Positions 4,274 to 26,934 of a DNA stretch of 52,442 nucleotides are shown here, one piece after another (the first letter of the stretch is position 1; every line of letters starts with the position of its first letter). The notes below the pieces were generated by a model, which was given only the letters and a program-made list of their open reading frames with translations, did no database searches and was not told the DNA's origin. The DNA comes from a virus (Duplodnaviria; Caudoviricetes), in the IMG/VR virus record IMGVR_UViG_3300045911_000060, positions 1 through 52,442 of that record; one strand, 5' to 3'. Position numbers and translations under genes: made by a program.

Positions 4274-4333
4274 ACCTGATTAGTATGTCAGAAATCTCGT
4301 TTCGCGTCAACTGGCGCGCTCTAAATGTCTGGC

Positions 4334-5488
4334 ATGCTAGAACTTCAGCGTGCCCTGCGAACAGGCGAAGAGACGACGGAATCACTGTCGGCACGTGGCA
4401 TCCGTGCCAAAGAGCACCCGGAATATCCGGGCCTTTGGCATTTCAGCTACGATCAACTTGAAGCCAAACCAAGTGATCCGATGGTCCGGGAAGCGCGCGG
4501 GTTGATCCTTGACCAGAATGACGATTGGAAAGTCGTCGCCGCGCCGTTCTTCCGTTTTGCCAATCACGGCGAATCGTGGGCCGATGCGATTGACTGGTCT
4601 ACAGCCGTCGTGCAAGAGAAGGTAGACGGATCGTTGATGATTGTCTGGTACTACAACGGTCAATGGAACGTCAGCACCAAGGGAAGCCCGAACGCGGGCG
4701 GTCAGGTGGACGTGCATCCGTTCACGTTCTCTGAGTTGTTCTGGCGGGTCTGGAAGGATCGCGGTTTCTCCACCGGGTACATGCATCCTCTGTTCACGTA
4801 TATGTTTGAACTGGTGTCCCCGTACAATCGGGTAGTGTGCAACTACGGAGAACCGAATCTCATTTTCCTTGGCGCGCGGAACAATGAAACTTTGGTCGAA
4901 CAATCGGCACATGAGTGGGCATGCGAATACTTGCCGGTGCCGGTTGCTCACTATCCGTTGAACAGTCTGGACGATGTGATCGCGGCGGCGCAAAAGTTGA
5001 CCCCGGAGTCGGGCGAAGGTTTTGTCGTGGTGGATGGACAGTACCGCCGGGTGAAGATCAAATCCCCGGCCTACGTCTTGGTTCACCATGCCAAGGATGG
5101 ATTCGGCCAGCGGCGGATCATTGATCTGATTCGTTTGGGTGAAACCAGCGAAGTGCTCAGCTACTTCCCGGAGTACCAACAGCAGTACGATGAACTGAAT
5201 TCCGCATTGGATGAACTGGTCGCAGAGTTGGAAGAGGCGTATGCCAAAATTCAACACATCGAAATCCAAAAGGACTTCGCGGTCGAAGCGTTGAAGACTC
5301 GATATTCGGCGGCGCTGTTCCAGACGCGGAATGGTCGTACAACGTCCATTCGGTCGGCTGTGCTGGCCGCGTCAACTGAAGTGCTCGAAAGGTTGCTTGG
5401 TGCCCGGAAAACCCGTGTTATCATTCCACATGCGGGAAATCCTACGGAAGATGCGCCAATGCCTGACACGGAAGAAGGAAGCGCCTGA
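4334..5488 (+). CDS. T4 Rnl1-family RNA ligase
   Basis: REARGLI, FFRF, EKVDGS (motif I), FEL, EGFVV, RVKIKS; start 4334 chosen from TAAATG box 6 nt upstream. Confidence 0.9.
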   Translation: MLELQRALRTGEETTESLSARGIRAKEHPEYPGLWHFSYDQLEAKPSDPMVREARGLILDQNDDWKVVAAPFFRFANHGESWADAIDWSTAVVQEKVDGSLMIVWYYNGQWNVSTKGSPNAGGQVDVHPFTFSELFWRVWKDRGFSTGYMHPLFTYMFELVSPYNRVVCNYGEPNLIFLGARNNETLVEQSAHEWACEYLPVPVAHYPLNSLDDVIAAAQKLTPESGEGFVVVDGQYRRVKIKSPAYVLVHHAKDGFGQRRIIDLIRLGETSEVLSYFPEYQQQYDELNSALDELVAELEEAYAKIQHIEIQKDFAVEALKTRYSAALFQTRNGRTTSIRSAVLAASTEVLERLLGARKTRVIIPHAGNPTEDAPMPDTEEGSA

Positions 5489-19760: not shown

Positions 19761-20104
19761 TGTACGAAGTCAGTCTGATCGAACGCCCCGACCATAAGGT
19801 CTGGATTCCAGCCGGGCAGTTCGATCCAGAAAAACACGTCAAGCACGCGGAACGAAACATCACCGCTGATGACATGCTGGATTGGATTGATGGTGATTGG
19901 CCGTCCATCGAAACCGATGCGACCGGCACAACCGTCGCCCGGCTGGAACCGGGGCAAGGCGCGAACAACATGTTCCGGGGAAGGAATGTGCGGGAAGCCT
20001 TGGCGAAGGCCATGATGACGCCGCCGTTCGGTGGCCCGACTCCACAGCAGTTTGATGCGATGAATGACGAAGAACAGCTTGCGTCAAACTCTGTGGTGTG
20101 CTAA
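19760..20104 (+). CDS. hypothetical protein
   Basis: TGATG-coupled start. Confidence 0.55.
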   Translation: MYEVSLIERPDHKVWIPAGQFDPEKHVKHAERNITADDMLDWIDGDWPSIETDATGTTVARLEPGQGANNMFRGRNVREALAKAMMTPPFGGPTPQQFDAMNDEEQLASNSVVC

Positions 20105-20112
20105 ATTAGAGT

Positions 20113-20400
20113 TGTTCGCGTTGATCTGGTGTAGACCACGTTCGGACGCCGGTTCAATTCCGGCCACCTCCACCAAAACACGCTCCCGCAAGGGGGCACC
20201 ATACGGGGGTGTCAGGTTTCGACGGGCGGCGGAAAGCTAAAGGGAGCGGGCCGGTAGACGACTACCGAAGCCGATGAAGTTTTATGAGCGGATTCGGACC
20301 AACAGCGTAAAACAATAACTGCCAACAGCAATGTTCTGGCGATGGCTGCTTAATTGCACCCATCCGGGGAATTGAAGGTGCCCTGTTAAAGAAAGACCTT
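20113..20400 (+). ncRNA. ssrA: circularly permuted (two-piece) tmRNA; tag ANSNVLAMAA
   Basis: T-arm and acceptor 3' end ...CACCTCCACCA ends 20175, before the 5' end GGGGGTG...TTCGAC at 20205; G3:U70; ATAACT then tag frame 20321-20353; promoter TTGCGT-17-TAAATT. Outer ends approximate. Confidence 0.88.
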
Positions 20401-20408
20401 CGCAAGAT

Positions 20409-20435
20409 CGCCGGACTTTCGGGTCCGGCGTTTTT
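20409..20435 (+). terminator. intrinsic terminator of tmRNA
   Basis: CGCCGGAC-TTTCGG-GTCCGGCG-TTTTT. Confidence 0.85.
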
Positions 20436-20466
20436 GTTTCCCACCGAACTTTTCCACAGGTACCTC

Positions 20467-20495
20467 TTGACATATAGGTCCAGAACTTCTATACT
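20467..20495 (+). promoter_or_regulatory. early promoter (TTGACATATAGGTC...TATACT)
   Basis: Same 14-mer as position 14; 17-nt spacer. Confidence 0.8.
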
Positions 20496-20501
20496 TGGAT
20501 C

Positions 20502-20621
20502 ATGAGTACCAATTATTTCTTCCTGTTCCTCTTCGGTGTGGTGATGTTGCTCACCGCTCAGAAGGTCTATAACCGTCGTCGCATTGCCGCCATCATCCGC
20601 CGGGTCAAGGGCGAATGGTAA
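20502..20621 (+). CDS. small membrane peptide, 39 aa (MSTNYFFLFLFGVVMLLTAQKVYNRRR...)
   Basis: ATG 6 nt after -10; TM plus basic tail; not in the ORF track. Confidence 0.6.
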   Translation: MSTNYFFLFLFGVVMLLTAQKVYNRRRIAAIIRRVKGEW

Positions 20622-20652
20622 GGTGGTGCGGGTCGTCAGCTAAATATCCAAT

Positions 20653-20922
20653 ATGGCTGACAATTTCCGCACCCACGAAACTAACCTCGAAAGCCCGGCA
20701 CGCAATGCGTACCTCGTTTCGCCAAACGATTCGGTAGACCTTCCGATCACAACCCGTGCGCTGATGGTGAATAACCCCGGCGACGTGAAGGTTGAATTTG
20801 CCCGCGATATTGAAGGCGCGGCGGTCGTTTTGAAACTGGCCGCTTCGACGGTGTATCCGTTCTGTATTCGCCGCATTTGGGCCAACGGCACCACTGCGAC
20901 ACAGATCACCGCTTTGTACTAG
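20653..20922 (+). CDS. head spike base protein (RcGTA Rcc01079-like)
   Basis: SPARNAYLVSPNDSVDL...RALMV...RRIWANGTTATQITALY; TAAATA upstream. Confidence 0.75.
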   Translation: MADNFRTHETNLESPARNAYLVSPNDSVDLPITTRALMVNNPGDVKVEFARDIEGAAVVLKLAASTVYPFCIRRIWANGTTATQITALY

Positions 20923-21950
20923 ACCCTGATTTCGAAAGACAACGAAATCTGTTGCGGCATCGTGTTTTCATTCGGTTCTATGCCGCCCGGCGAAAAGAAC
21001 GTCCGGCTGGTTCCGAAAGAGAACAGCGTGATTCGTCGAACATACGTGATCGCCACATCCGACCCGGACGCGCCAGCAGTTGACGCGGATACAACACGGT
21101 ACTTCTGAAACGATGTGGTGATGTCAGAAGATCCAATCGTTCCGATAGTGACAAGCTGAACCGGCACCGGCGTGGCGGAAACGTCTGATGTTCCTGAAGC
21201 AAAGATGGTGTCGCTCCACCGTATCTTGGTGGTTGTCGTGAACGTCGAAGATGTTGAATCTGACGCACCGGCGCTGAAGCATATCCGATATAGGACTGCG
21301 TTTGTTTCTGACAGTGCCGATGTTTCCAGCGACGCGGCAAATCGCACTCGATACAATTGAGCAATCGTTTCCGACAAGCCATCCAATTGTCCGGTCGTGA
21401 ATTGATACTTGGTCCCGGTTGCCGTGGCTTCGCTGATCGAATTGACAGTGGGCGCGGCAAATCGCAACAACACCGCGTTAGCTGATGCCACGCTGATGCT
21501 GTTGATGGTGAACGGATTGTTCTGGAACAGGGTGTAGGTGACTGATGTGTCAGAGTTCCCCGCCGCCTGTTGGTCGCTTATGGAATGGACCAGATCATTG
21601 ACTTGAGCATCGGACAACCCGGCGGTTTCACCGGTACGATGAAACACAAGTAGGATGTTCTGAACATCCGCTTCCGACGTGCCATTTGTTTCAATGTTGG
21701 TTGAGATCCCATCAATGAGATCCAACAAGATTTCGCTAAGGCCGTTGGTAGTGACCGTGCGCCGGTAGATTTTCTGATAGACCGCGCTGGTGCTTGACGA
21801 ACCAGATGTCGTGAAGACAAGAGCGGTGACGGCACTCCCTAGAAGACGCCAAGCATCGTTTTGTTCAACGCGAAGGTCACACCAATCGCGGCAATTGTGT
21901 ACGTTTGTGCCATGCTGTCGGATATTTAGAAAGACGATTTGGCGGTACAC
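20919..21950 (-). CDS. S/T-rich repetitive putative virion protein
   Basis: Recurring S-S/E-x-x-A-x-L/Y-R-x-F units; start uncertain. Confidence 0.55.
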   Translation of the reverse strand: MYRQIVFLNIRQHGTNVHNCRDWCDLRVEQNDAWRLLGSAVTALVFTTSGSSSTSAVYQKIYRRTVTTNGLSEILLDLIDGISTNIETNGTSEADVQNILLVFHRTGETAGLSDAQVNDLVHSISDQQAAGNSDTSVTYTLFQNNPFTINSISVASANAVLLRFAAPTVNSISEATATGTKYQFTTGQLDGLSETIAQLYRVRFAASLETSALSETNAVLYRICFSAGASDSTSSTFTTTTKIRWSDTIFASGTSDVSATPVPVQLVTIGTIGSSDITTSFQKYRVVSASTAGASGSDVAITYVRRITLFSFGTSRTFFSPGGIEPNENTMPQQISLSFEIRV

Positions 21951-21967
21951 TGCCGATAAATACCTGA

Positions 21968-22873
21968 GTGCCGAAGACCTATAGCCATTTCATCCGGGAA
22001 GGACATACTAGTGATGAAGTCTTGTCGTTCAAAGACTATCCGCTGGTGTCGAAGTTCCATCTGTTCAACAAGCTGTTCTTCGACAATGTGATCCCGAACA
22101 ACACTCCAGTGGTGTGGGGCAAGACCGGCAAGCGGGTATCGGGAGTGACGACCGGCAAATTCAAACTGGCACCGGGCGAACGAAAGCCATCCGGCGCGCT
22201 GGCCGCGATGACGAAGATGAATGGTGAAGTCTACGACCTGAAGATCACCATGAGCACGGAAGTGCCGATCCGCCCGGAGTGGAAGTGGGACGGTATCCTT
22301 CTTCATGAAATGGTTCATGCGTACCTCATCACGCAAGGCTACTGGTTCGAGAATCACGGATCGCGTTTCTTGACCAAGGTTCATATGGTGTCCAAAGATT
22401 TCGGTCGTCCGGTTCCGGTGTCGGACACGATTAGCCCGGAAGAAATGGAGCACGTGACCGGCAAGCCGTGTGTGTTGGTGACTTTCATCGATCATGACCG
22501 AAAGGATATGCAGTACTCCCTGTTGATGCCGACGTGGAAAGCCAAGGCCGGGGAACTCAAAGCAACCTTGCGGAAATTGTGGATCAGATACGACATGGAG
22601 ATCACCGCATTCTTCATCCCGGCGTCGAAGCTGGCGACCCGGATGACAGTCAGCCGGACGCTTCCAGCGGCGCGCTACGGAGTCTCTGATCGGACCAAAG
22701 ACATGCTATTGACCGATAAGAAGAGTGCGGTCCAGTTGTGGACGATGAATACTTCCATTGAACGTGACGCCGATCAGAAGGCCAAGGACGACTTCTTCAA
22801 TCCCAACAAACCCGCCCCGGATATCGGTGGTAGGGACTTCGGCAAGTGGAATTCCAAAGTCATCGCCCCGTGA
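21968..22873 (+). CDS. SprT-like zinc metalloprotease
   Basis: FNKLFFDN, LLHEMVHAY, HGSRF. Confidence 0.8.
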   Translation: MPKTYSHFIREGHTSDEVLSFKDYPLVSKFHLFNKLFFDNVIPNNTPVVWGKTGKRVSGVTTGKFKLAPGERKPSGALAAMTKMNGEVYDLKITMSTEVPIRPEWKWDGILLHEMVHAYLITQGYWFENHGSRFLTKVHMVSKDFGRPVPVSDTISPEEMEHVTGKPCVLVTFIDHDRKDMQYSLLMPTWKAKAGELKATLRKLWIRYDMEITAFFIPASKLATRMTVSRTLPAARYGVSDRTKDMLLTDKKSAVQLWTMNTSIERDADQKAKDDFFNPNKPAPDIGGRDFGKWNSKVIAP

Positions 22874-22885
22874 TAGAATTGGGTC

Positions 22886-23191
22886 ATGTATCGAGACGCC
22901 GCCGAAGTTGTTGCATCGCAGAAATGGTTTCACGTTGACGCGGTAACCGGCGAACATCTGTCGTGGGAACAAGAAGATGAGTCTTCCTGTTCCAGCCGGG
23001 AAGAAGCTATCGGGATCATTCAACGCACGCTCGATTTCTGGCTAGTCAAGATGCGCGATATGTACGTCGCACAGGGATTGGACATCGAACGGGCGCGGGA
23101 AGACGCGAAGGTTACGTTCATCATCAATCTGGAAGCGATGATGTTGAATACTCCCTTCGCAAAACAGTGGGGATTAGAACTTTCCTTTTGA
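22886..23191 (+). CDS. hypothetical protein
   Basis: ATG 6 nt after TAGAAT. Confidence 0.6.
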   Translation: MYRDAAEVVASQKWFHVDAVTGEHLSWEQEDESSCSSREEAIGIIQRTLDFWLVKMRDMYVAQGLDIERAREDAKVTFIINLEAMMLNTPFAKQWGLELSF

Positions 23192-23197
23192 AAAATG

Positions 23198-23227
23198 TTG
23201 ACTTTTGTCCGGCGGCATGTATAAATA
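23198..23227 (+). promoter_or_regulatory. RNA-operon promoter (TTGACT ... TATAAATA)
   Basis: -35 box plus a perfect T4 late consensus TATAAATA at 23220-23227. Confidence 0.75.
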
Positions 23228-23245
23228 GAGATGAGGCAACGCACC

Positions 23246-23368
23246 ATGAAGGCAATCTTCACAACTCGAACGCACACAGCCACTACGATGTCTGTGCGCG
23301 CGACTGCGTTTGCCGGTGGCGTCGATATTGTGATCGATACCATCGCTGCGACGGCAGCAGCGGCTTAA
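23246..23368 (+). CDS. Ala/Thr-rich leader peptide MKAIFTTRTHTATTMSVRATAFAGGVDIVIDTIAATAAAA
   Basis: GAGG RBS; in-frame alternative start 23231; not in the ORF track. Confidence 0.6.
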   Translation: MKAIFTTRTHTATTMSVRATAFAGGVDIVIDTIAATAAAA

Positions 23369-23416
23369 GCCGCCCACAGACTTTCCCCTCCAAGTCATAT
23401 TAGGTTTTGTCCATTT

Positions 23417-23493
23417 GGGCCGTTAGCTCATTTTGGGAGAGCATCCGCCTTGCAAGCGGAAGGTAGCCGGTTCGATCCCGGCACGGTCCACCA
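23417..23493 (+). tRNA. tRNA-Ala(TGC)
   Basis: Cloverleaf, G3:U70, loop CT-TGC-AA, CCA. Confidence 0.95.
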
Positions 23494-23500
23494 AACAAAT

Positions 23501-23580
23501 GGGGCACGGGGCTGCATGGGGTGGCCGCTTCGATGGCATCGAAGATATTCAGGTGGGTTCGATTCCCACGTGTTCCACCA
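23501..23580 (+). tRNA. tRNA-Ala(GGC)
   Basis: G3:U70, loop AT-GGC-AT, G at position 8, CCA. Confidence 0.85.
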
Positions 23581-23639
23581 AACAGAGACGGGCGATTACA
23601 AGTTTCTTGTGTCGTGCGATTGCAAGTTTTCTCTGTCTT

Positions 23640-23652
23640 TGTTCTTTGAAAA
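23640..23652 (+). promoter_or_regulatory. rrn-type boxA antitermination element TGTTCTTTGAAAA
   Basis: Matches boxA consensus; preceded by a stem (ACAGAGA/TCTCTGT). Confidence 0.6.
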
Positions 23653-23692
23653 TCGAATAGTTTTTGCGGAAGGAATCTCGGTTCACTAAAAC

Positions 23693-23773
23693 GGGGCACG
23701 GGACTGCATGGGGGTGGTCGCCTCATTCGCAATGAGGATATTCAGGTGGGTTCGATTCCCACGTGTTCCACCA
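23693..23773 (+). tRNA. tRNA-Ala(CGC)
   Basis: Paralog of Ala(GGC); loop TT-CGC-AA; CCA. Confidence 0.85.
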
Positions 23774-23780
23774 AGATTCC

Positions 23781-24019
23781 ATGACACGAAGCCGAAGTAT
23801 AAGTACTTCTTGACAGGGCCGTTCAAAGCCGAAGTCGGAAGATTATCTGGTTACAACAGATGGCCGGGCTTACTAAGTTCGGTCTTCCCCGTGTTATGGG
23901 GAATGCTTCGTTACCGGGCAACCGGGCGACCGTCAGACCTGTACGGTGACATTTGACAGGCACTTTGATGCTTCTGATGAGTTGGATTCTTGCTTTGAAC
24001 GGCTCTTTCTTCGTGTCAT
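23781..24019 (+). ncRNA. unidentified multibranch structured RNA
   Basis: Closing stems 23781-91/24009-19 and 23815-29/23992-24006 plus five internal hairpins. Confidence 0.65.
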
Positions 24020-24069
24020 ACTGAATTCAGGACAAGCCGCCTCAGATTGGTTATCTGTCCCCACCTTTC

Positions 24070-24146
24070 GGAGATGTAGCTTAACATGGTTAAAGCGCCG
24101 GGCCGCAAAGCCCGGAGAAGTTGGTTCGAGTCCAATTCTTAGTCGA
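24070..24146 (+). pseudogene. degenerate tRNA (GCA, Cys-like)
   Basis: D and T arms intact, 8-nt anticodon loop, broken acceptor stem, no CCA. Confidence 0.55.
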
Positions 24147-24156
24147 TCTGTACTCT

Positions 24157-24312
24157 CTTGCTTGTCCATAATTTTCGCTGGCCGGTGCCGACTTTCTGGC
24201 TTAAGAAAGAGCACCTTCCTCCAAAGTCGGTAGTCGTGGGGCGAACGGTTAACGTCGATGTTTCCCACTGTCAGTCGGAGCGACATCGGCCAGCGTGCAT
24301 TCCTTCCGCAAG
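24157..24312 (+). ncRNA. unidentified structured RNA
   Basis: 12-bp stem 24176-87/24284-95; CCGACTTT/AAAGTCGG; GTGGG/CCCAC; outer CTTGC/GCAAG. Confidence 0.5.
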
Positions 24313-24315
24313 TTC

Positions 24316-24389
24316 GGGGCATTTCGTTAGTGGCAAACGGCACCACTGTCTATGGTGTACCACGGGTTCGATTCCCGTATGCCCCGCCA
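24316..24389 (+). tRNA. tRNA-Asp(GTC)
   Basis: Loop CT-GTC-TA, G73, CCA. Confidence 0.88.
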
Positions 24390-24390
24390 C

Positions 24391-24468
24391 GGTCTTGTAG
24401 GGGAGTTGGCCGTCCCCGTCACCCTGTCACGGTGAAGATCACGGGTTCGAATCCCGTCAGGACCGCCA
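24391..24468 (+). tRNA. tRNA-Asp(GTC)
   Basis: Loop CT-GTC-AC, G73, CCA. Confidence 0.92.
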
Positions 24469-24504
24469 AGTTTGACGTTCACGTTTGTGGATGTCAGACC
24501 CGTT

Positions 24505-24606
24505 GGGGAGATAGCCTAGCTTGGTTAAGGCACCGTTGCATGCCTTTTGCTGGCAACAGCCGTTTTGTGATGGTTATCATTGGTTCGAATCCAATTCTCC
24601 CCTCCA
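24505..24606 (+). tRNA. tRNA-like RNA with ~25-nt expansion in the anticodon region (identity undetermined)
   Basis: Perfect acceptor GGGGAGA/TCTCCCC, D and T arms, CCA; 102 nt. Confidence 0.7.
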
Positions 24607-24610
24607 ACAT

Positions 24611-24686
24611 GCCGGTGTAGTTTAAGTGGCAAAATAGTGGTTTCGTACTCCACAGTCACGACTTCAATCTGTCGTCACCGGCTCCA
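24611..24686 (+). tRNA. tRNA-Thr(CGT)
   Basis: GCCGGTG/CACCGGC, loop TT-CGT-AC, 8-nt T loop, CCA. Confidence 0.8.
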
Positions 24687-24696
24687 AACACAACAC

Positions 24697-24772
24697 GCCG
24701 AATAAGCATTGATGGCGATGCGCTGGTCTTGTAAATCAGAGAAGAGGGTTCAACTTCCCTCATTCGGCTCCA
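24697..24772 (+). tRNA. tRNA-Thr(TGT)
   Basis: Loop CT-TGT-AA, 8-nt T loop, CCA. Confidence 0.85.
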
Positions 24773-24774
24773 AC

Positions 24775-24865
24775 GGGCCTGTAGCTTAGAGTGCCGGGGA
24801 CGCCCGGACGGTCAGAGCACTTCAGGTTGAAGAAGGCGCGGGTTCGATCCCCGCCAGTCCCGCCA
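24775..24865 (+). tRNA. tRNA-like RNA with hairpin inserted in D loop and shortened anticodon arm
   Basis: Acceptor and T arm intact, CCA; CCGGG-GACG-CCCGG in D loop; CTTCA-GGT-TGAAG arm. Confidence 0.7.
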
Positions 24866-25566
24866 TGCACCTGTCTTCTAACTGGTCAGGAACCGCGATT
24901 GGTATTCGCGAAATATGGGTTCGAGTCCCATCGGGTGCTCCATTCTTTTGATGATATCGTTGACGACGAATTGCGCGACCTTTTCCTTTATTGAGCGCTC
25001 CAAATGTCGGAGTGACACTATGACAGTTCGGGCAGATGAGTTCAAGGTTCTCTTCCTTGTTGTTCAGCGGGTCGCCGTCAATATGATTGACTTGTAACGG
25101 TACCCGTTGTGTGACAGGATTGATTTGACACCATCCGCACTTCCAACACGCCAGGCCTTTCTTCTCGAACAGGTATCGGCGGATAGTTTTGACTGATCGA
25201 CATACCGCCGCCTTTGATACCATCTTCCAATCCATTCTTCCACCGTTGAATGAATTCATTGTACAGATGATTTTTGTGGCAGCGACCAGAACAGAATTCA
25301 TTCGTTCCCTTTTTGACATCTTTGCCGCACACAATGCACGTGGGTGTTTTGTCTGCCCGTCGCACGTTATTGTATCTGGCCGCGCACGATTGATTGCAGA
25401 ACTTCTTTTTTCTGGTTTCCGCAACGCGACCGCCTTCTGGTACATGAATCACTTCATCACAATGAAGGCAACGGTTGGGTGACTCATTGTATGATGTGAT
25501 TGCTTGTTGACGAAAACGATGTGCTGTGATGGCGGCACCTAGCCGCCCCGCTTGGGATCTGGTCAC
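24822..25566 (-). pseudogene. frameshifted HNH homing endonuclease with zinc fingers
   Basis: N-terminal CxxC/FCxxxC repeats in one frame; HNH (HIDGDPLNN...LICPNCH) in another; shift at 25187-25190. Confidence 0.75.
24867..24942 (+). tRNA. tRNA-Thr(GGT)
   Basis: Loop TT-GGT-AT, CCA. Confidence 0.92.
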
Positions 25567-26106: not shown

Positions 26107-26344
26107 GTTTTTCGTAGTGGGCTTTCATTGCGAAGATCAACCCGGTCGGACCAGTCATCGGTTGCACGCCACAAATGTTCGCTGCAACCAATTTCGGCAT
26201 CGCCCGGCGGATCAACGAAATGAGAACCGCATCCGGGTGTGGTTTGGGACGCGCCCAAGCGGGCAAAGTCAAACCCAATGTCCGGCATGCCGCCGCAACA
26301 AAAGGTGTCAGAAGGGTGATGAAAAAAGCCTGTCTTGTCATCAC
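26090..26344 (-). CDS. mini-protein: hydrophobic leader plus gp23 major-capsid Gol-region fragment
   Basis: [36 protein letters not shown] matches the conserved T4-type MCP motif; GTGA overlap with clpP. Confidence 0.8.
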
Positions 26345-26934
26345 GGCTGTTTCTTAATCACCTTATCGACAAGGCCGTACTTGACCGCCGCGTCCGCTTC
26401 CAAGATGTAGTCGCGGTCCACGTCCGCGCTGATCTTTTCGAGCGGCTGGCCGGTCTTGGTTGCCAAGATGCCGTTGAGGATTTCGCGCATGCGCAAGATT
26501 TCCTTGGCGTGGATGTCGATGTCGCTGGCCTGTCCGCTGAGTCCGCGCATCAACGGCTGGTGGATCAGGATGCGTGCGTGCGGCAAAGCGAAGCGCTTAC
26601 CCTTGGCACCGTTCGCCAGTAACACAGCGCCCATTGAAGCGGCCTGACCGACGCAATAGGTCACGATGTCGGGCTTGACCAGATTCATCGTATCGAGAAT
26701 GGCAAGGCCCGCCGTGATCGATCCGCCCGGCGAATTGATGTACATGCTGATGTCCTTGTCCGGGTCTTCCGCCGCAAGGAAGAGAAGCTGTGCGACGACC
26801 AGATTGGCAACGTCGTCATCAATCGCAGTGCCAAGGAAGATGATGTGTTCTTTGAGAAGACGGGAGTAGATGTCGTAGGAACGTTCGCCGCGCGGGGACT
26901 GTTCCACGACCATCGGGATGAGTGTGTTGTGCAT
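26341..26934 (-). CDS. clpP: ATP-dependent Clp protease proteolytic subunit
   Basis: DIYSRLL, YINSPGG, AASMG (Ser), IHQP (His), DRD (Asp). Confidence 0.97.

What the first reader, a model, noticed from the sequence alone, without database searches (positions are those of the whole stretch)
23231..23400. Leader peptide whose composition mirrors the downstream tRNA operon
The first element after the operon promoter is a 40-aa ORF with 11 Ala, 9 Thr and 2 Asp (22/40). It uses all four Ala and all four Thr codons and ends AATAAAA. The canonical tRNAs downstream are exactly Ala, Thr and Asp. The stop codon sits in a GCGGC-TTAA-GCCGC hairpin. Inference: ribosome-mediated sensing of host Ala/Thr tRNA depletion controls the phage tRNA supply, like amino-acid attenuators but regulating tRNA genes. 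No classical U-tract terminator is visible, so control would be Rho- or processing-based. Alternative: the -AA C-terminus is a ClpXP degron or decoy.
Basis: partly seen in the sequence, partly recalled or inferred. Interest (0 to 1): 0.8.

Follow-up and report, generated by a model that had tools for sequence, protein, structure and literature searches.

The report
Codon-matched leader before phage tRNA operon
A 40-codon mini-gene at the head of a phage tRNA operon is spelled mostly in the amino acids whose tRNAs follow it, and three sister operons in related phages show the same match, which suggests that the virus ties tRNA production to how well ribosomes read those codons.

Summary
The ORF at 23246-23368 (40 codons) has 11 Ala, 9 Thr and 2 Asp. 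It follows the promoter TTGACT-16-TATAAATA and precedes tRNA-Ala x3, Asp x2 and Thr x3.

Two near-complete relatives (G001, G002) carry the promoter word TGTATAAATAGA only at the heads of tRNA operons. Each of those operons starts with its own short ATG ORF enriched in its own tRNAs' amino acids:
- A: 22/39 residues
- B: 30/37
- C: 15/34
- D: 9/13

Binomial p runs from 2e-6 to 2e-3. All 12 cross-comparisons are depleted, and the match exists only in the ATG frame.

The leader is as conserved as the tRNAs: 120/123 nt, against 70-83% for the flanking genes, and 1/40 third codon positions differ against 33%.

I read it as a translated, codon-matched sensor of aminoacyl-tRNA supply. How it couples to tRNA output is unresolved. 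Operon A has no intrinsic terminator and no predicted structural switch. The ClpXP-degron idea does not generalise.

Five literature searches found no description of such a leader. This scan has already noted the same arrangement on other phage DNA (at least 8 genomes); I did not test those notes.

Expression has not been tested.

The parts
23198..23203 (+). -35 hexamer TTGACT of the tRNA-operon promoter
   Evidence: the only TTGAC-N(15-19)-TATAAA match in the window, with 0.02 expected. The same promoter layout heads operons A-D in the relatives.
23219..23229 (+). -10 region GTATAAATAGA, which contains TATAAATA and is shared by all tRNA-operon promoters of the lineage
   Evidence: TATAAATA occurs once in the window. 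TGTATAAATAGA occurs 3 times in G001 (224 kb). In G002 it occurs twice exactly, and a third site has 1 mismatch. Reversed-pattern controls gave 0. One search places each site at the head of a tRNA operon.
23233..23236 (+). Shine-Dalgarno-like GAGG, 9 nt before the ATG
   Evidence: Read directly from the sequence. The sister leaders have AAGGA, AAGG and AGGA 7-13 nt before their ATG. The MFE fold predicts it is partly paired.
23246..23368 (+). Leader ORF: 40 codons plus TAA. 22 of the 39 post-initiator codons are readable by the operon's own anticodons.
   Evidence: - Sequence and composition.
- 120/123 nt identical to G001.
- Four peptide variants, all 40 aa.
23235..23243 (+). 5' strand of predicted helix P1 (GGCAACGCA). 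It overlaps the SD and pairs with 23305-23314.
   Evidence: MFE folds. Leader C has the paralogous pairing GGCAACGA with UCGUUGCC. This is prediction only.
23305..23314 (+). 3' strand of predicted helix P1 (UGCGUUUGCC), covering codons 20-23 of the ORF
   Evidence: Prediction only.
23360..23373 (+). Hairpin GCGGC-UUAA-GCCGC with the stop codon in its loop
   Evidence: Pair probability is 1.0 in the free fold. Leader D has the analogous AUCGGC-UAGC-GCCGAU.
23374..23416 (+). C-rich, G-poor spacer. It holds a weak hairpin (23379-23396) and a U-rich tail, and ends in UCCA-UUU just before the tRNA.
   Evidence: - C/G = 2.29 in the 45 nt after the stop.
- Hairpin.
- 45/49 columns identical to G001, with the changes in the loop and tail.
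- The scan does not count it as a terminator.
23417..23493 (+). tRNA-Ala(UGC), first gene of the operon
   Evidence: ARAGORN. Rfam 63.2 bits. 77/77 identical to G001.
23501..23580 (+). tRNA-Ala(GGC), irregular D arm, has G3:U70
   Evidence: Below the Rfam gathering score.
23693..23773 (+). tRNA-Ala(CGC), irregular D arm, has G3:U70
24069..24144 (+). Irregular tRNA-like gene with an 8-nt anticodon loop. ARAGORN calls its G001 counterpart Cys(GCA).
   Evidence: Rfam 31.7 bits.
24316..24468 (+). Two tRNA-Asp(GUC) genes, at 24316-24389 and 24391-24468
24505..24603 (+). tRNA-like gene with an insert of about 25 nt in the anticodon arm
   Evidence: Rfam 45.2 bits. ARAGORN in intron mode gives an unreliable Lys call.
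24611..24942 (+). tRNA-Thr(CGU) at 24611-24686, tRNA-Thr(UGU) at 24697-24772, a tRNA-like gene with a D-loop hairpin at 24775-24862, and tRNA-Thr(GGU) at 24867-24942

Best explanation
**What it is.** The 40-codon ORF is the translated leader of tRNA operon A of a large T4-like environmental phage. It is one of four paralogous promoter-leader modules in this lineage. Each module's codons sample the tRNAs encoded behind it. Operon A's leader samples every Ala and Thr isoacceptor plus Asp.

**What it most likely does.** It works as a decoding-speed sensor. How fast a ribosome moves through the matched codons reports the supply of those charged tRNAs, and this sets how much of the tRNA operon is made.

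**The version I favour.** This is the his/thr-type logic: slow decoding raises tRNA output. Because operon A has no intrinsic terminator, the coupling step would have to be one of two things:
- occlusion of the stop-codon hairpin and C-rich tract from Rho by a ribosome stalled in the Ala/Thr-rich last codons;
- an effect on processing or stability of the precursor.

**Shown:**
- the ORF and the promoter;
- the four-fold, frame-specific codon-tRNA match;
- the extreme nucleotide conservation.

**Inferred:**
- translation of the ORF;
- any regulatory effect;
- its sign;
- the coupling step.
For: 1. **Composition of leader A.** 22/39 residues are Ala, Thr or Asp, against a background of 0.22 (p = 2.2e-6). 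None of 487 like-sized short ORFs of the window reaches this.

2. **Out-of-sample test.** In the relatives G001 and G002 the promoter word TGTATAAATAGA occurs only at the heads of tRNA operons. The first ATG ORF after each one is as follows.
 - B: MTNVANKRNGNTARCARGNRFVTFNWCGSRFNGRVKRG, before Arg, Gly, Val, Asn, Lys, Cys, Met, His, Trp and Phe tRNAs.
 - C: MRNVNYNTANILSAISLPSLPLPATLSGLRLPPLR, before Pro x4, Leu x5 and Ile(UAU).
 - D: MIRSMYQYRQEHIG, before Tyr, Ile, Met, Glu, His, Phe and Gln tRNAs.

3. **Own-set fractions.** B 30/37, C 15/34 and D 9/13 (p = 1.9e-6, 5.5e-4, 1.9e-3). All 12 off-diagonal enrichments are below 1. The true pairing scores best of 24 permutations. Short-ORF controls gave 0/516, 2/545 and 0/260. 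Stricter operon definitions keep p between 2e-6 and 1.2e-3.

4. **Frame specificity.** The ATG frame scores 0.56, 0.81, 0.44 and 0.69. The other two frames score 0.07-0.42.

5. **Codon level.**
 - 22/39, 28/37, 13/34 and 9/13 codons are readable by the operon's own anticodons.
 - All 7 Arg codons of leader B are CGN. The CGN-reading tRNA-Arg(ACG) heads operon B and Arg(CCG) follows further down. The AGR-reading Arg tRNAs lie about 3 kb further still, behind protein genes.
 - Leader C contains ATA, and tRNA-Ile(UAU) lies about 3 kb downstream.

6. **Conservation.** Leader A is 120/123 identical to G001. The flanking CDSs are 751/906 and 223/318, and one true spacer is 77/112. Third codon positions differ at 1/40, against 98/301 in the neighbouring gene (P = 2.9e-6). 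Leader B is 117/117 identical in a third relative whose spacers are 91-92% identical. This fits codons that each probe a particular isoacceptor, plus RNA structure.

7. **Peptide variants.** In the 4 variants, 4 of the 5 variable sites are non-cognate positions. The one cognate site that varies stays in the set (Ala to Thr).

8. **Context.** The phage also carries a tmRNA, ClpP and an RNA ligase.
Against: - **No expression data.** No listed run that holds the stretch is on record as RNA; two low-share runs are guessed to be RNA.
- **No terminator in A or B.** No terminator-like site lies between the ORF and the first tRNA in operon A, or on the + strand in B.
- **Operon C.** It has only a 5-bp hairpin plus U7. 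Masking a ribosome footprint codon by codon left that hairpin formed throughout.
- **Operon A.** The same masking test showed no consistent switch.
- **RBS accessibility.** The SD and start codon are predicted to be partly paired.
- **Structure alone could explain the conservation.** Nucleotide-level conservation, and the fact that 6 of 7 observed or inferred substitutions fit the predicted hairpins, would also be expected of a purely structural RNA.
- **Other open frames.** Other reading frames are also open across the leader region: a 78-aa + strand frame and three minus-strand ORFs of 36-107 aa.
- **Leader D is weak evidence.** It is only 14 codons long and is separated from its tRNAs by two probable protein genes.
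- **Part of C is unmatched.** The N-terminal half of leader C has 2/16 matched residues.
- **Narrow clade.** The peptide has no relatives outside it, so there is no deep covariation.
- **Not universal.** Five unrelated ClpP-encoding phages with Leu/Gln tRNA clusters showed no Leu/Gln-rich upstream ORF.
Confidence: 0.6

Rival explanations
1. Same translated, codon-matched leader, but with the opposite sign. Efficient translation, meaning plentiful cognate tRNA, keeps the ribosome close behind RNA polymerase and protects the long untranslated tRNA transcript from Rho or nucleases. The operon is then made only when decoding works. This would be pyrBI-type coupling or a licensing step, not a shortage sensor.
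For: - It needs no terminator or antiterminator, and none is found in operon A.
- A C-rich, G-poor tract follows the stop codon directly.
- It shares all the evidence for codon matching.
Against: - Positive feedback on tRNA supply gives no obvious benefit when tRNAs are short.
- Known multi-codon leaders (thrL, ilvL; recalled, not tested here) act as shortage sensors.
- No data here decide the sign.
Confidence: 0.15
2. A non-coding structured 5' leader or co-transcribed small stable RNA, acting as a processing or folding element of the tRNA precursor in the way the small stable RNAs of the T4 tRNA cluster might. The ORF would be incidental.
For: - Conservation equals that of the tRNAs, including synonymous sites.
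- The leader folds as a chain of hairpins with a z-score of -2.37.
- The 3 substitutions against G001 fall in two loops and one G-U to A-U change. Those inferred from variant P0001 are mostly compatible with the structure.
- The SD and AUG are partly paired.
- Other frames are also open across this stretch.
Against: - A structural RNA gives no reason for four different leaders each to encode, in the ATG-started frame only, the amino acids of their own downstream tRNAs.
- There is no Rfam match.
- Structure and translation are not mutually exclusive.
Confidence: 0.12
3. A small protein with a function of its own, for example a ClpXP substrate or decoy through its Ala-Ala C-terminus, that is merely co-transcribed with the tRNAs.
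For: - It ends in AATAAAA.
- The phage encodes ClpP and a tmRNA whose tag ends in MAA.
- All 4 variants keep the 40-aa length.
Against: - The sister leaders end in RVKRG, LPPLR and EHIG and share no sequence with it.
- It has no homologue outside the clade among 1.84 billion representatives. The two other hits are short stretches of large proteins.
- Substitutions are not biased toward synonymous sites.
Confidence: 0.05

Closest known systems
Multivalent leader-peptide transcription attenuators of enterobacterial amino-acid operons (thrL for Thr+Ile, ilvL/ivbL for Ile/Leu/Val, also trpL, hisL, pheL, leuL). Recalled from textbook knowledge, not retrieved here.
   Same: - A short ORF with an RBS sits directly behind the promoter and ahead of the first structural gene.
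- It is strongly enriched in codons for the species being sensed, including several amino acids at once.
- The RBS is predicted to pair with a later leader segment.
   Different: - The genes behind it are tRNA genes, not biosynthetic enzymes.
- Operon A has no hairpin-plus-U-tract terminator.
- No antiterminator alternative is detectable.
- Four such leaders divide most of the genetic code among four operons of one phage lineage.
Rho-dependent leader-peptide control (tnaC of the tryptophanase operon; mgtL/corL-type leaders). Recalled.
   Same: - There is no intrinsic terminator.
- The stop codon lies next to a C-rich, G-poor stretch that a ribosome stalled near the end of the ORF would cover.
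   Different: - Neither a rut site nor Rho dependence is shown.
- The C-rich stretch is short, about 30-45 nt.
- tnaC senses a free amino acid through the nascent peptide, not tRNA supply.
pheST attenuation (leader pheM) and T-box riboswitches, which are controls of translation-apparatus genes by tRNA charging. Recalled.
   Same: Expression of a component of the decoding machinery is tied to the availability of charged tRNA.
   Different: - Those systems control aminoacyl-tRNA synthetase genes, one amino acid at a time.
- T-boxes bind the tRNA directly and need no translation.
- Nothing from Rfam matches the leader.
The phage T4 tRNA gene cluster with co-transcribed small stable RNAs. Recalled.
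   Same: A T4-like phage with clustered tRNA genes, conserved non-tRNA RNA segments in the same transcript, and an RNA ligase.
   Different: To my knowledge no codon-matched leader ORF has been described for T4. I did not test this here.

Membership tests
Leader-peptide (ribosome-mediated) transcription attenuator | A short ORF with a ribosome-binding site between the promoter and the first structural gene | tested here: met
   The promoter is at 23198-23229, GAGG at 23233-23236 and the ORF at 23246-23368. The first tRNA starts at 23417. Operons B, C and D have the same layout.
Leader-peptide (ribosome-mediated) transcription attenuator | The ORF is enriched in codons that report the sensed species | tested here: met
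   Own-set fractions are 22/39, 30/37, 15/34 and 9/13, with p from 2e-6 to 2e-3. The match is frame-specific and holds at the codon level.
Leader-peptide (ribosome-mediated) transcription attenuator | An intrinsic terminator (G+C hairpin followed by a U tract) between the leader ORF and the first gene | tested here: not met
   - No terminator-like site at 23369-23416.
- None on the + strand in B.
- C alone has a 5-bp hairpin plus U7.
Leader-peptide (ribosome-mediated) transcription attenuator | Mutually exclusive antiterminator and terminator pairings, selected by ribosome position | tested here: inconclusive
   Equilibrium folds with a 27-nt footprint masked codon by codon left the C hairpin at P = 0.86-0.93 throughout. 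In A there was no consistent change. Co-transcriptional kinetics were not modelled.
Leader-peptide (ribosome-mediated) transcription attenuator | Read-through responds to charging of the cognate tRNA | not testable with these tools
   This needs reporters or transcript mapping under tRNA limitation.
Rho-dependent leader-peptide control (tnaC type) | A C-rich, G-poor unstructured Rho-loading site next to the leader's stop codon | tested here: inconclusive
   C/G is 2.29, 1.67, 2.00 and 1.07 in the 45 nt after the stop of A, B, C and D. It falls to 1.05-1.39 over 90 nt.
T-box riboswitch | Match to the T-box covariance model (specifier loop and T-box sequence) | tested here: not met
   An Rfam scan of 19900-25100 at E up to 5 gave no match inside 23228-23416.
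tmRNA, or a tmRNA-like mRNA domain | Match to tmRNA models, with a tag frame lacking its own start codon and flanked by a tRNA-like domain | tested here: not met
   Strong tmRNA matches lie only around 20065-20433; two beta_tmRNA fragments (12-16 bits, gathering 84) fall in the tRNA-Ala-like genes. The leader has its own SD and ATG.
ssrA-like C-terminal ClpXP degron | A C-terminal Ala-Ala kept across the family | tested here: not met
   Leader A ends in AAAA. Leaders B, C and D end in KRG, PLR and HIG.

The most novel reading that the evidence does not exclude
This phage lineage runs a four-channel, translation-based sensor array. Each tRNA operon is gated by its own codon-matched mini-ORF, so the virus measures decoding speed for each group of amino acids and makes only the tRNA sets that are running short. 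Shortage could arise after host shut-off or an attack by tRNA-cleaving defences. In this lineage the gate would work without an intrinsic terminator, through Rho or precursor processing. That would be a form of leader-peptide control not described for RNA genes.
Probability: 0.4. Interest if true: 0.9.

Novelty: new variant of a known kind. Interest (0 to 1): 0.85.

Why it matters
Leader-peptide sensing is a classic control of amino-acid biosynthesis. I found no paper applying it to tRNA genes (five full-text searches).

If it is real, several things follow:
- A virus monitors the decoding capacity of the infected cell codon group by codon group and adjusts its own tRNA supply. This bears on why large phages carry tRNAs at all.
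- It bears on the arms race with tRNA-targeting defences. In this phage the leaders sit alongside a phage RNA ligase, a tmRNA and tRNA mimics.
- It offers compact natural sensors of the supply of defined tRNA sets.

The claim is directly testable with reporters.

Tried and rejected
**Searches for relatives of the leader**
- The search for related loci with the 101-aa and 301-aa upstream genes found only the two contigs G001 and G002.
- A tRNA-Ala-like pattern also found only those two contigs.
- A 21-nt leader pattern in metagenome contigs gave one chance hit inside a high-GC bacterial gene with no tRNA (L007).
- The word-index protein search found 1 cluster of 4 variants.
- The exhaustive profile search found that cluster plus two spurious hits in large proteins.
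- blastn of leaders A and B against 50,697 phage records gave no match.
- tblastn with the SprT-like protein reached only Tenacibaculum phages PTm1/PTm5 at 30% identity, and PTm1 has no tRNA match.
- tblastn with a 409-aa structural ORF gave no match.

- (promoter pattern): 19 matches with + strand tRNAs within 2.5 kb. Their short ORFs were not analysed statistically.
- 6 matches with tRNAs downstream. Five were G001, G002 or the relative L182.
- 0 of 119 loci had a tRNA downstream.

**Generality**
- In the ClpP-encoding phages with Leu/Gln tRNA clusters, the conserved upstream ORF (MACGCK...EKRIIR, found in four of them) is not Leu/Gln-rich.
- Roseobacter phage DSS3P8 shares only tRNA-Ala sequence.

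**Mechanism**
- Terminator scans.
- Ribosome-masking folds showed no switch.

**Ideas considered and dropped**
- T-box or a tmRNA-like module: no Rfam match.
- Leaderless start at 23231: out of frame in G001.
- -AA degron: not kept in B, C or D.

**Expression**
- No RNA holder was listed.
- The one run guessed as RNA (X19) is probably DNA and is kept as contigs.
- One search lists only the best-supported differences; 54 rows are not shown. "Three variable sites in the ORF" therefore refers to the rows shown.

**Papers.** I saw search listings and abstract starts only, plus one passage of PMC3082878, which was irrelevant. Supplements were not consulted.
Full report
**Setting**

The window is an IMG/VR virus record of 52,442 bases, estimated to be 28% complete. 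It carries:
- phage tail and baseplate genes, a DNA end protector and an RNA ligase of the T4 gp63 type;
- a bona fide ClpP (PF00574, 271 bits);
- a permuted tmRNA at 20083-20444;
- one tRNA cluster at 23417-24942.

- ORF 23246-23368 encodes MKAIFTTRTHTATTMSVRATAFAGGVDIVIDTIAATAAAA: 11 Ala, 9 Thr and 2 Asp, with every Ala and Thr codon used.
- A GAGG lies 9 nt before the ATG.
- TTGACT-16-TATAAA sits at 23198-23225, the only such match in the window. It contains the window's only TATAAATA.
- The stop codon lies in the loop of GCGGC-UUAA-GCCGC.
- Downstream are Ala(UGC, GGC, CGC), Asp(GUC) x2 and Thr(CGU, UGU, GGU), plus three irregular tRNA-like genes.
- The scan finds no terminator-like site between the ORF and the first tRNA.
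- The composition is extreme for this DNA. It is the top of 365 short ORFs, and only 2 of 39,454 stop-free 40-residue windows reach 20 Ala+Thr.

**Conservation**

Only a narrow clade carries the element.
- Two IMG/VR contigs hold it: G001 (224,490 bp, 96% complete) and G002 (184,632 bp, 86% complete).
- The 15-billion-protein collection holds one cluster of four 40-aa variants.
- An exhaustive profile search of 1.84 billion representatives added nothing real.

Identity of the window to G001, segment by segment:

| Segment | Identical |
|---|---|
| Leader ORF | 120/123 |
| tRNAs | 96-100% |
| Upstream protein gene 1 | 751/906 |
| Upstream protein gene 2 | 223/318 |
| One inter-tRNA spacer | 77/112 |

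Third codon positions differ at 1/40 in the leader against 98/301 in the neighbouring gene (P = 2.9e-6).

I laid contigs from four further runs on the stretch. In the rows shown, the ORF varies at the same three sites only, while the upstream gene varies at many (that table is truncated).

The three substitutions fall in two predicted loops and turn one G-U pair into A-U. Taken alone, this pattern says the nucleotide sequence is constrained. That would fit a structural RNA as well as a leader whose individual codons and folds both matter.

**The decisive test**

G001 and G002 carry 41 and 44 tRNA matches in several clusters.

The promoter word TGTATAAATAGA occurs three times in G001. In G002 it occurs twice exactly, with a third site carrying one mismatch. 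Reversed-pattern controls gave zero. Every site lies at the head of a tRNA operon.

I applied one rule fixed in advance: take the first ATG ORF after the promoter. For A this is the ATG kept in frame in both phages. The rule gives the following.

| Operon | Leader | Downstream tRNAs |
|---|---|---|
| A | the ORF above | Ala, Asp, Thr |
| B | MTNVANKRNGNTARCARGNRFVTFNWCGSRFNGRVKRG | Arg(ACG), Gly, Val x2, Asn x2, Lys x2, Cys x2, Met, His, Trp x2, Phe x2, Arg(CCG) |
| C | MRNVNYNTANILSAISLPSLPLPATLSGLRLPPLR | Pro x4, Leu x5, later Ile(UAU) |
| D (G002) | MIRSMYQYRQEHIG | Tyr x2, Ile x2, Met, Glu x3, His x2, Phe, Gln x4 |

Results:
- **Own-set fractions.** The fraction of post-initiator residues in the operon's own amino-acid set is 22/39, 30/37, 15/34 and 9/13. 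The binomial p against the window's long-ORF composition is 2.2e-6, 1.9e-6, 5.5e-4 and 1.9e-3.
- **Cross-comparisons.** All twelve are depleted, and the true assignment is the best of 24 permutations.
- **Short-ORF controls.** 0/487, 0/516, 2/545 and 0/260 like-sized short ORFs reach the observed fractions.
- **Stricter operon definitions.** These keep p between 2e-6 and 1.2e-3.
- **Frame.** The signal exists only in the ATG frame (0.56, 0.81, 0.44, 0.69, against 0.07-0.42 in the other frames).
- **Codons.** 22/39, 28/37, 13/34 and 9/13 codons are readable by the operon's own anticodons.

Two details point the same way.
- All seven Arg codons of leader B are CGN. The CGN-reading tRNA-Arg(ACG) heads operon B and Arg(CCG) follows further down, whereas the AGR-reading Arg tRNAs sit about 3 kb further still, behind protein genes.
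- Among the four leader A variants, four of the five variable sites are non-cognate positions. The one cognate site that varies stays in the set, Ala to Thr.

Leader B is 117/117 identical in a third relative whose spacers are 91-92% identical.

**What this means**

A purely structural RNA, a chance ORF or an unrelated small protein gives no reason for four different leaders to spell out their own operon's tRNAs in the translated frame. I therefore read the ORF as a translated, codon-matched leader. The synonymous-site conservation then follows from each codon probing a given isoacceptor, plus RNA structure.

The -AA degron alternative does not generalise, because the sister leaders end in KRG, PLR and HIG.

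**Mechanism: inferred, not shown**

Shared anatomy:
- The leaders have an SD-like AGG 7-13 nt before the ATG.
- In A and C the SD-proximal GGCAACG is predicted to pair with codons about 20-23 of the ORF.
- The stop codon sits in or at a G+C hairpin: in the tetraloop in A and D, and in the 3' strand in C.
- After the stop comes a C-rich, G-poor stretch, with C/G of 2.3, 1.7 and 2.0 over 45 nt in A, B and C.

What is missing:
- Classical attenuation needs a terminator. None is found in A or B.
- C has only a 5-bp hairpin plus U7.
- Equilibrium folds with a ribosome footprint masked codon by codon gave no switch.

My preferred model is that slow decoding of the matched codons raises tRNA output. 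The matched codons are concentrated in the last codons of A and C. A late-stalled ribosome would cover the stop hairpin and C-rich tract and so block Rho, or it would alter precursor processing. The opposite sign, in which efficient translation licenses transcription, cannot be excluded.

**Against, or limiting**

- No listed run that holds the stretch is on record as RNA; two low-share runs are guessed to be RNA.
- The clade is narrow.
- Leader D is short, and two probable protein genes lie between it and its tRNAs.
- The first half of leader C is unmatched.
- Other frames are also open across this stretch.
- Five unrelated ClpP-encoding phages with Leu/Gln tRNA clusters have no Leu/Gln-rich upstream ORF, so the arrangement is not universal.

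**Comparison with what is known**

The element works like the multivalent leader-peptide attenuators (thrL, ilvL; recalled). It fails the terminator criterion, and it controls tRNA genes rather than biosynthetic enzymes.

It resembles tnaC-type Rho-dependent control only in layout. It is not a T-box or a tmRNA module.

Five full-text searches found no paper on a leader peptide ahead of tRNA genes. I saw listings and abstract starts, plus one irrelevant passage.

Notes of this scan report the same arrangement in at least eight other phage genomes, several with a switchable terminator. These are untested AI notes that I found after my own test. They suggest the phenomenon is recurrent, and that this lineage may be a terminator-less variant.

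**Verdict**

I class it as a new variant of a known kind, of high interest.

Noticed in passing
window 20083-20444: A phage-encoded permuted (two-piece) tmRNA with tag ANSNVLAMAA, followed by a terminator at 20409-20430 (Rfam tmRNA_permuted, 108.6 bits). A strong TTGACA-17-TATACT promoter follows at 20467.
   Followed up: partly
window 26341-26934 (-) and 4325-5488 (+): A full-length ClpP (PF00574, 271 bits) and an RNA ligase of the T4 gp63 type (phrog_562). With the tmRNA and the tRNA mimics, the phage carries several genes that act on translation or tRNA.
   Followed up: partly
window 23774-24068 and 24145-24315: Long inter-tRNA segments are 88-90% identical to G001, far above a true spacer (69%). 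They may be further structured RNAs in the same transcript. Rfam has no match.
   Followed up: no
window 14, 5633, 16249, 18381(-), 20467, 45508: Early-type promoters share TTGACATAyAnGTC. In several, an ATG lies 6 nt after the -10 hexamer, which suggests leaderless mRNAs. The tRNA-operon promoter differs from these (TTGACT...TGTATAAATAGA).
   Followed up: partly
window 23167-23403 (+, second frame): A second open frame of 78 aa, rich in Cys, His and Arg, runs through the promoter and leader. In G001 the transcript-proximal ATG reads this frame (65 aa). It is probably a by-product of the low stop-codon content of the region.
   Followed up: partly
L024 3140-3330 (G001 operon C): A tRNA-like gene whose acceptor, D and T arms are split by an insert of about 150 nt, directly after tRNA-Leu(GAG). 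It may be an intron-bearing tRNA.
   Followed up: no
L013-L016 (about 300-450 nt before the first tRNA): Unrelated AT-rich ClpP-encoding phages carry Leu-isoacceptor plus Gln tRNA clusters. In these four a conserved 40-44-aa ORF precedes the cluster (MACGCK...EKRIIR), followed by a promoter-like site and a hairpin. The ORF is not Leu/Gln-rich.
   Followed up: partly
L008 3086-3159 (Roseobacter phage DSS3P8, KT870145.1): ARAGORN finds a second tRNA-Ala(UGC)-like gene directly after the annotated tRNA-Ala. The record does not annotate it. It aligns with the window's Ala(UGC)-Ala(GGC) pair at 73% identity.
   Followed up: no
L026 7482-8099 (-), G002 operon D: Two small probable protein genes, of 80 aa and 98 aa (the second has Cys-rich zinc-ribbon-like motifs), lie between leader D and its first tRNA.
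   Followed up: no
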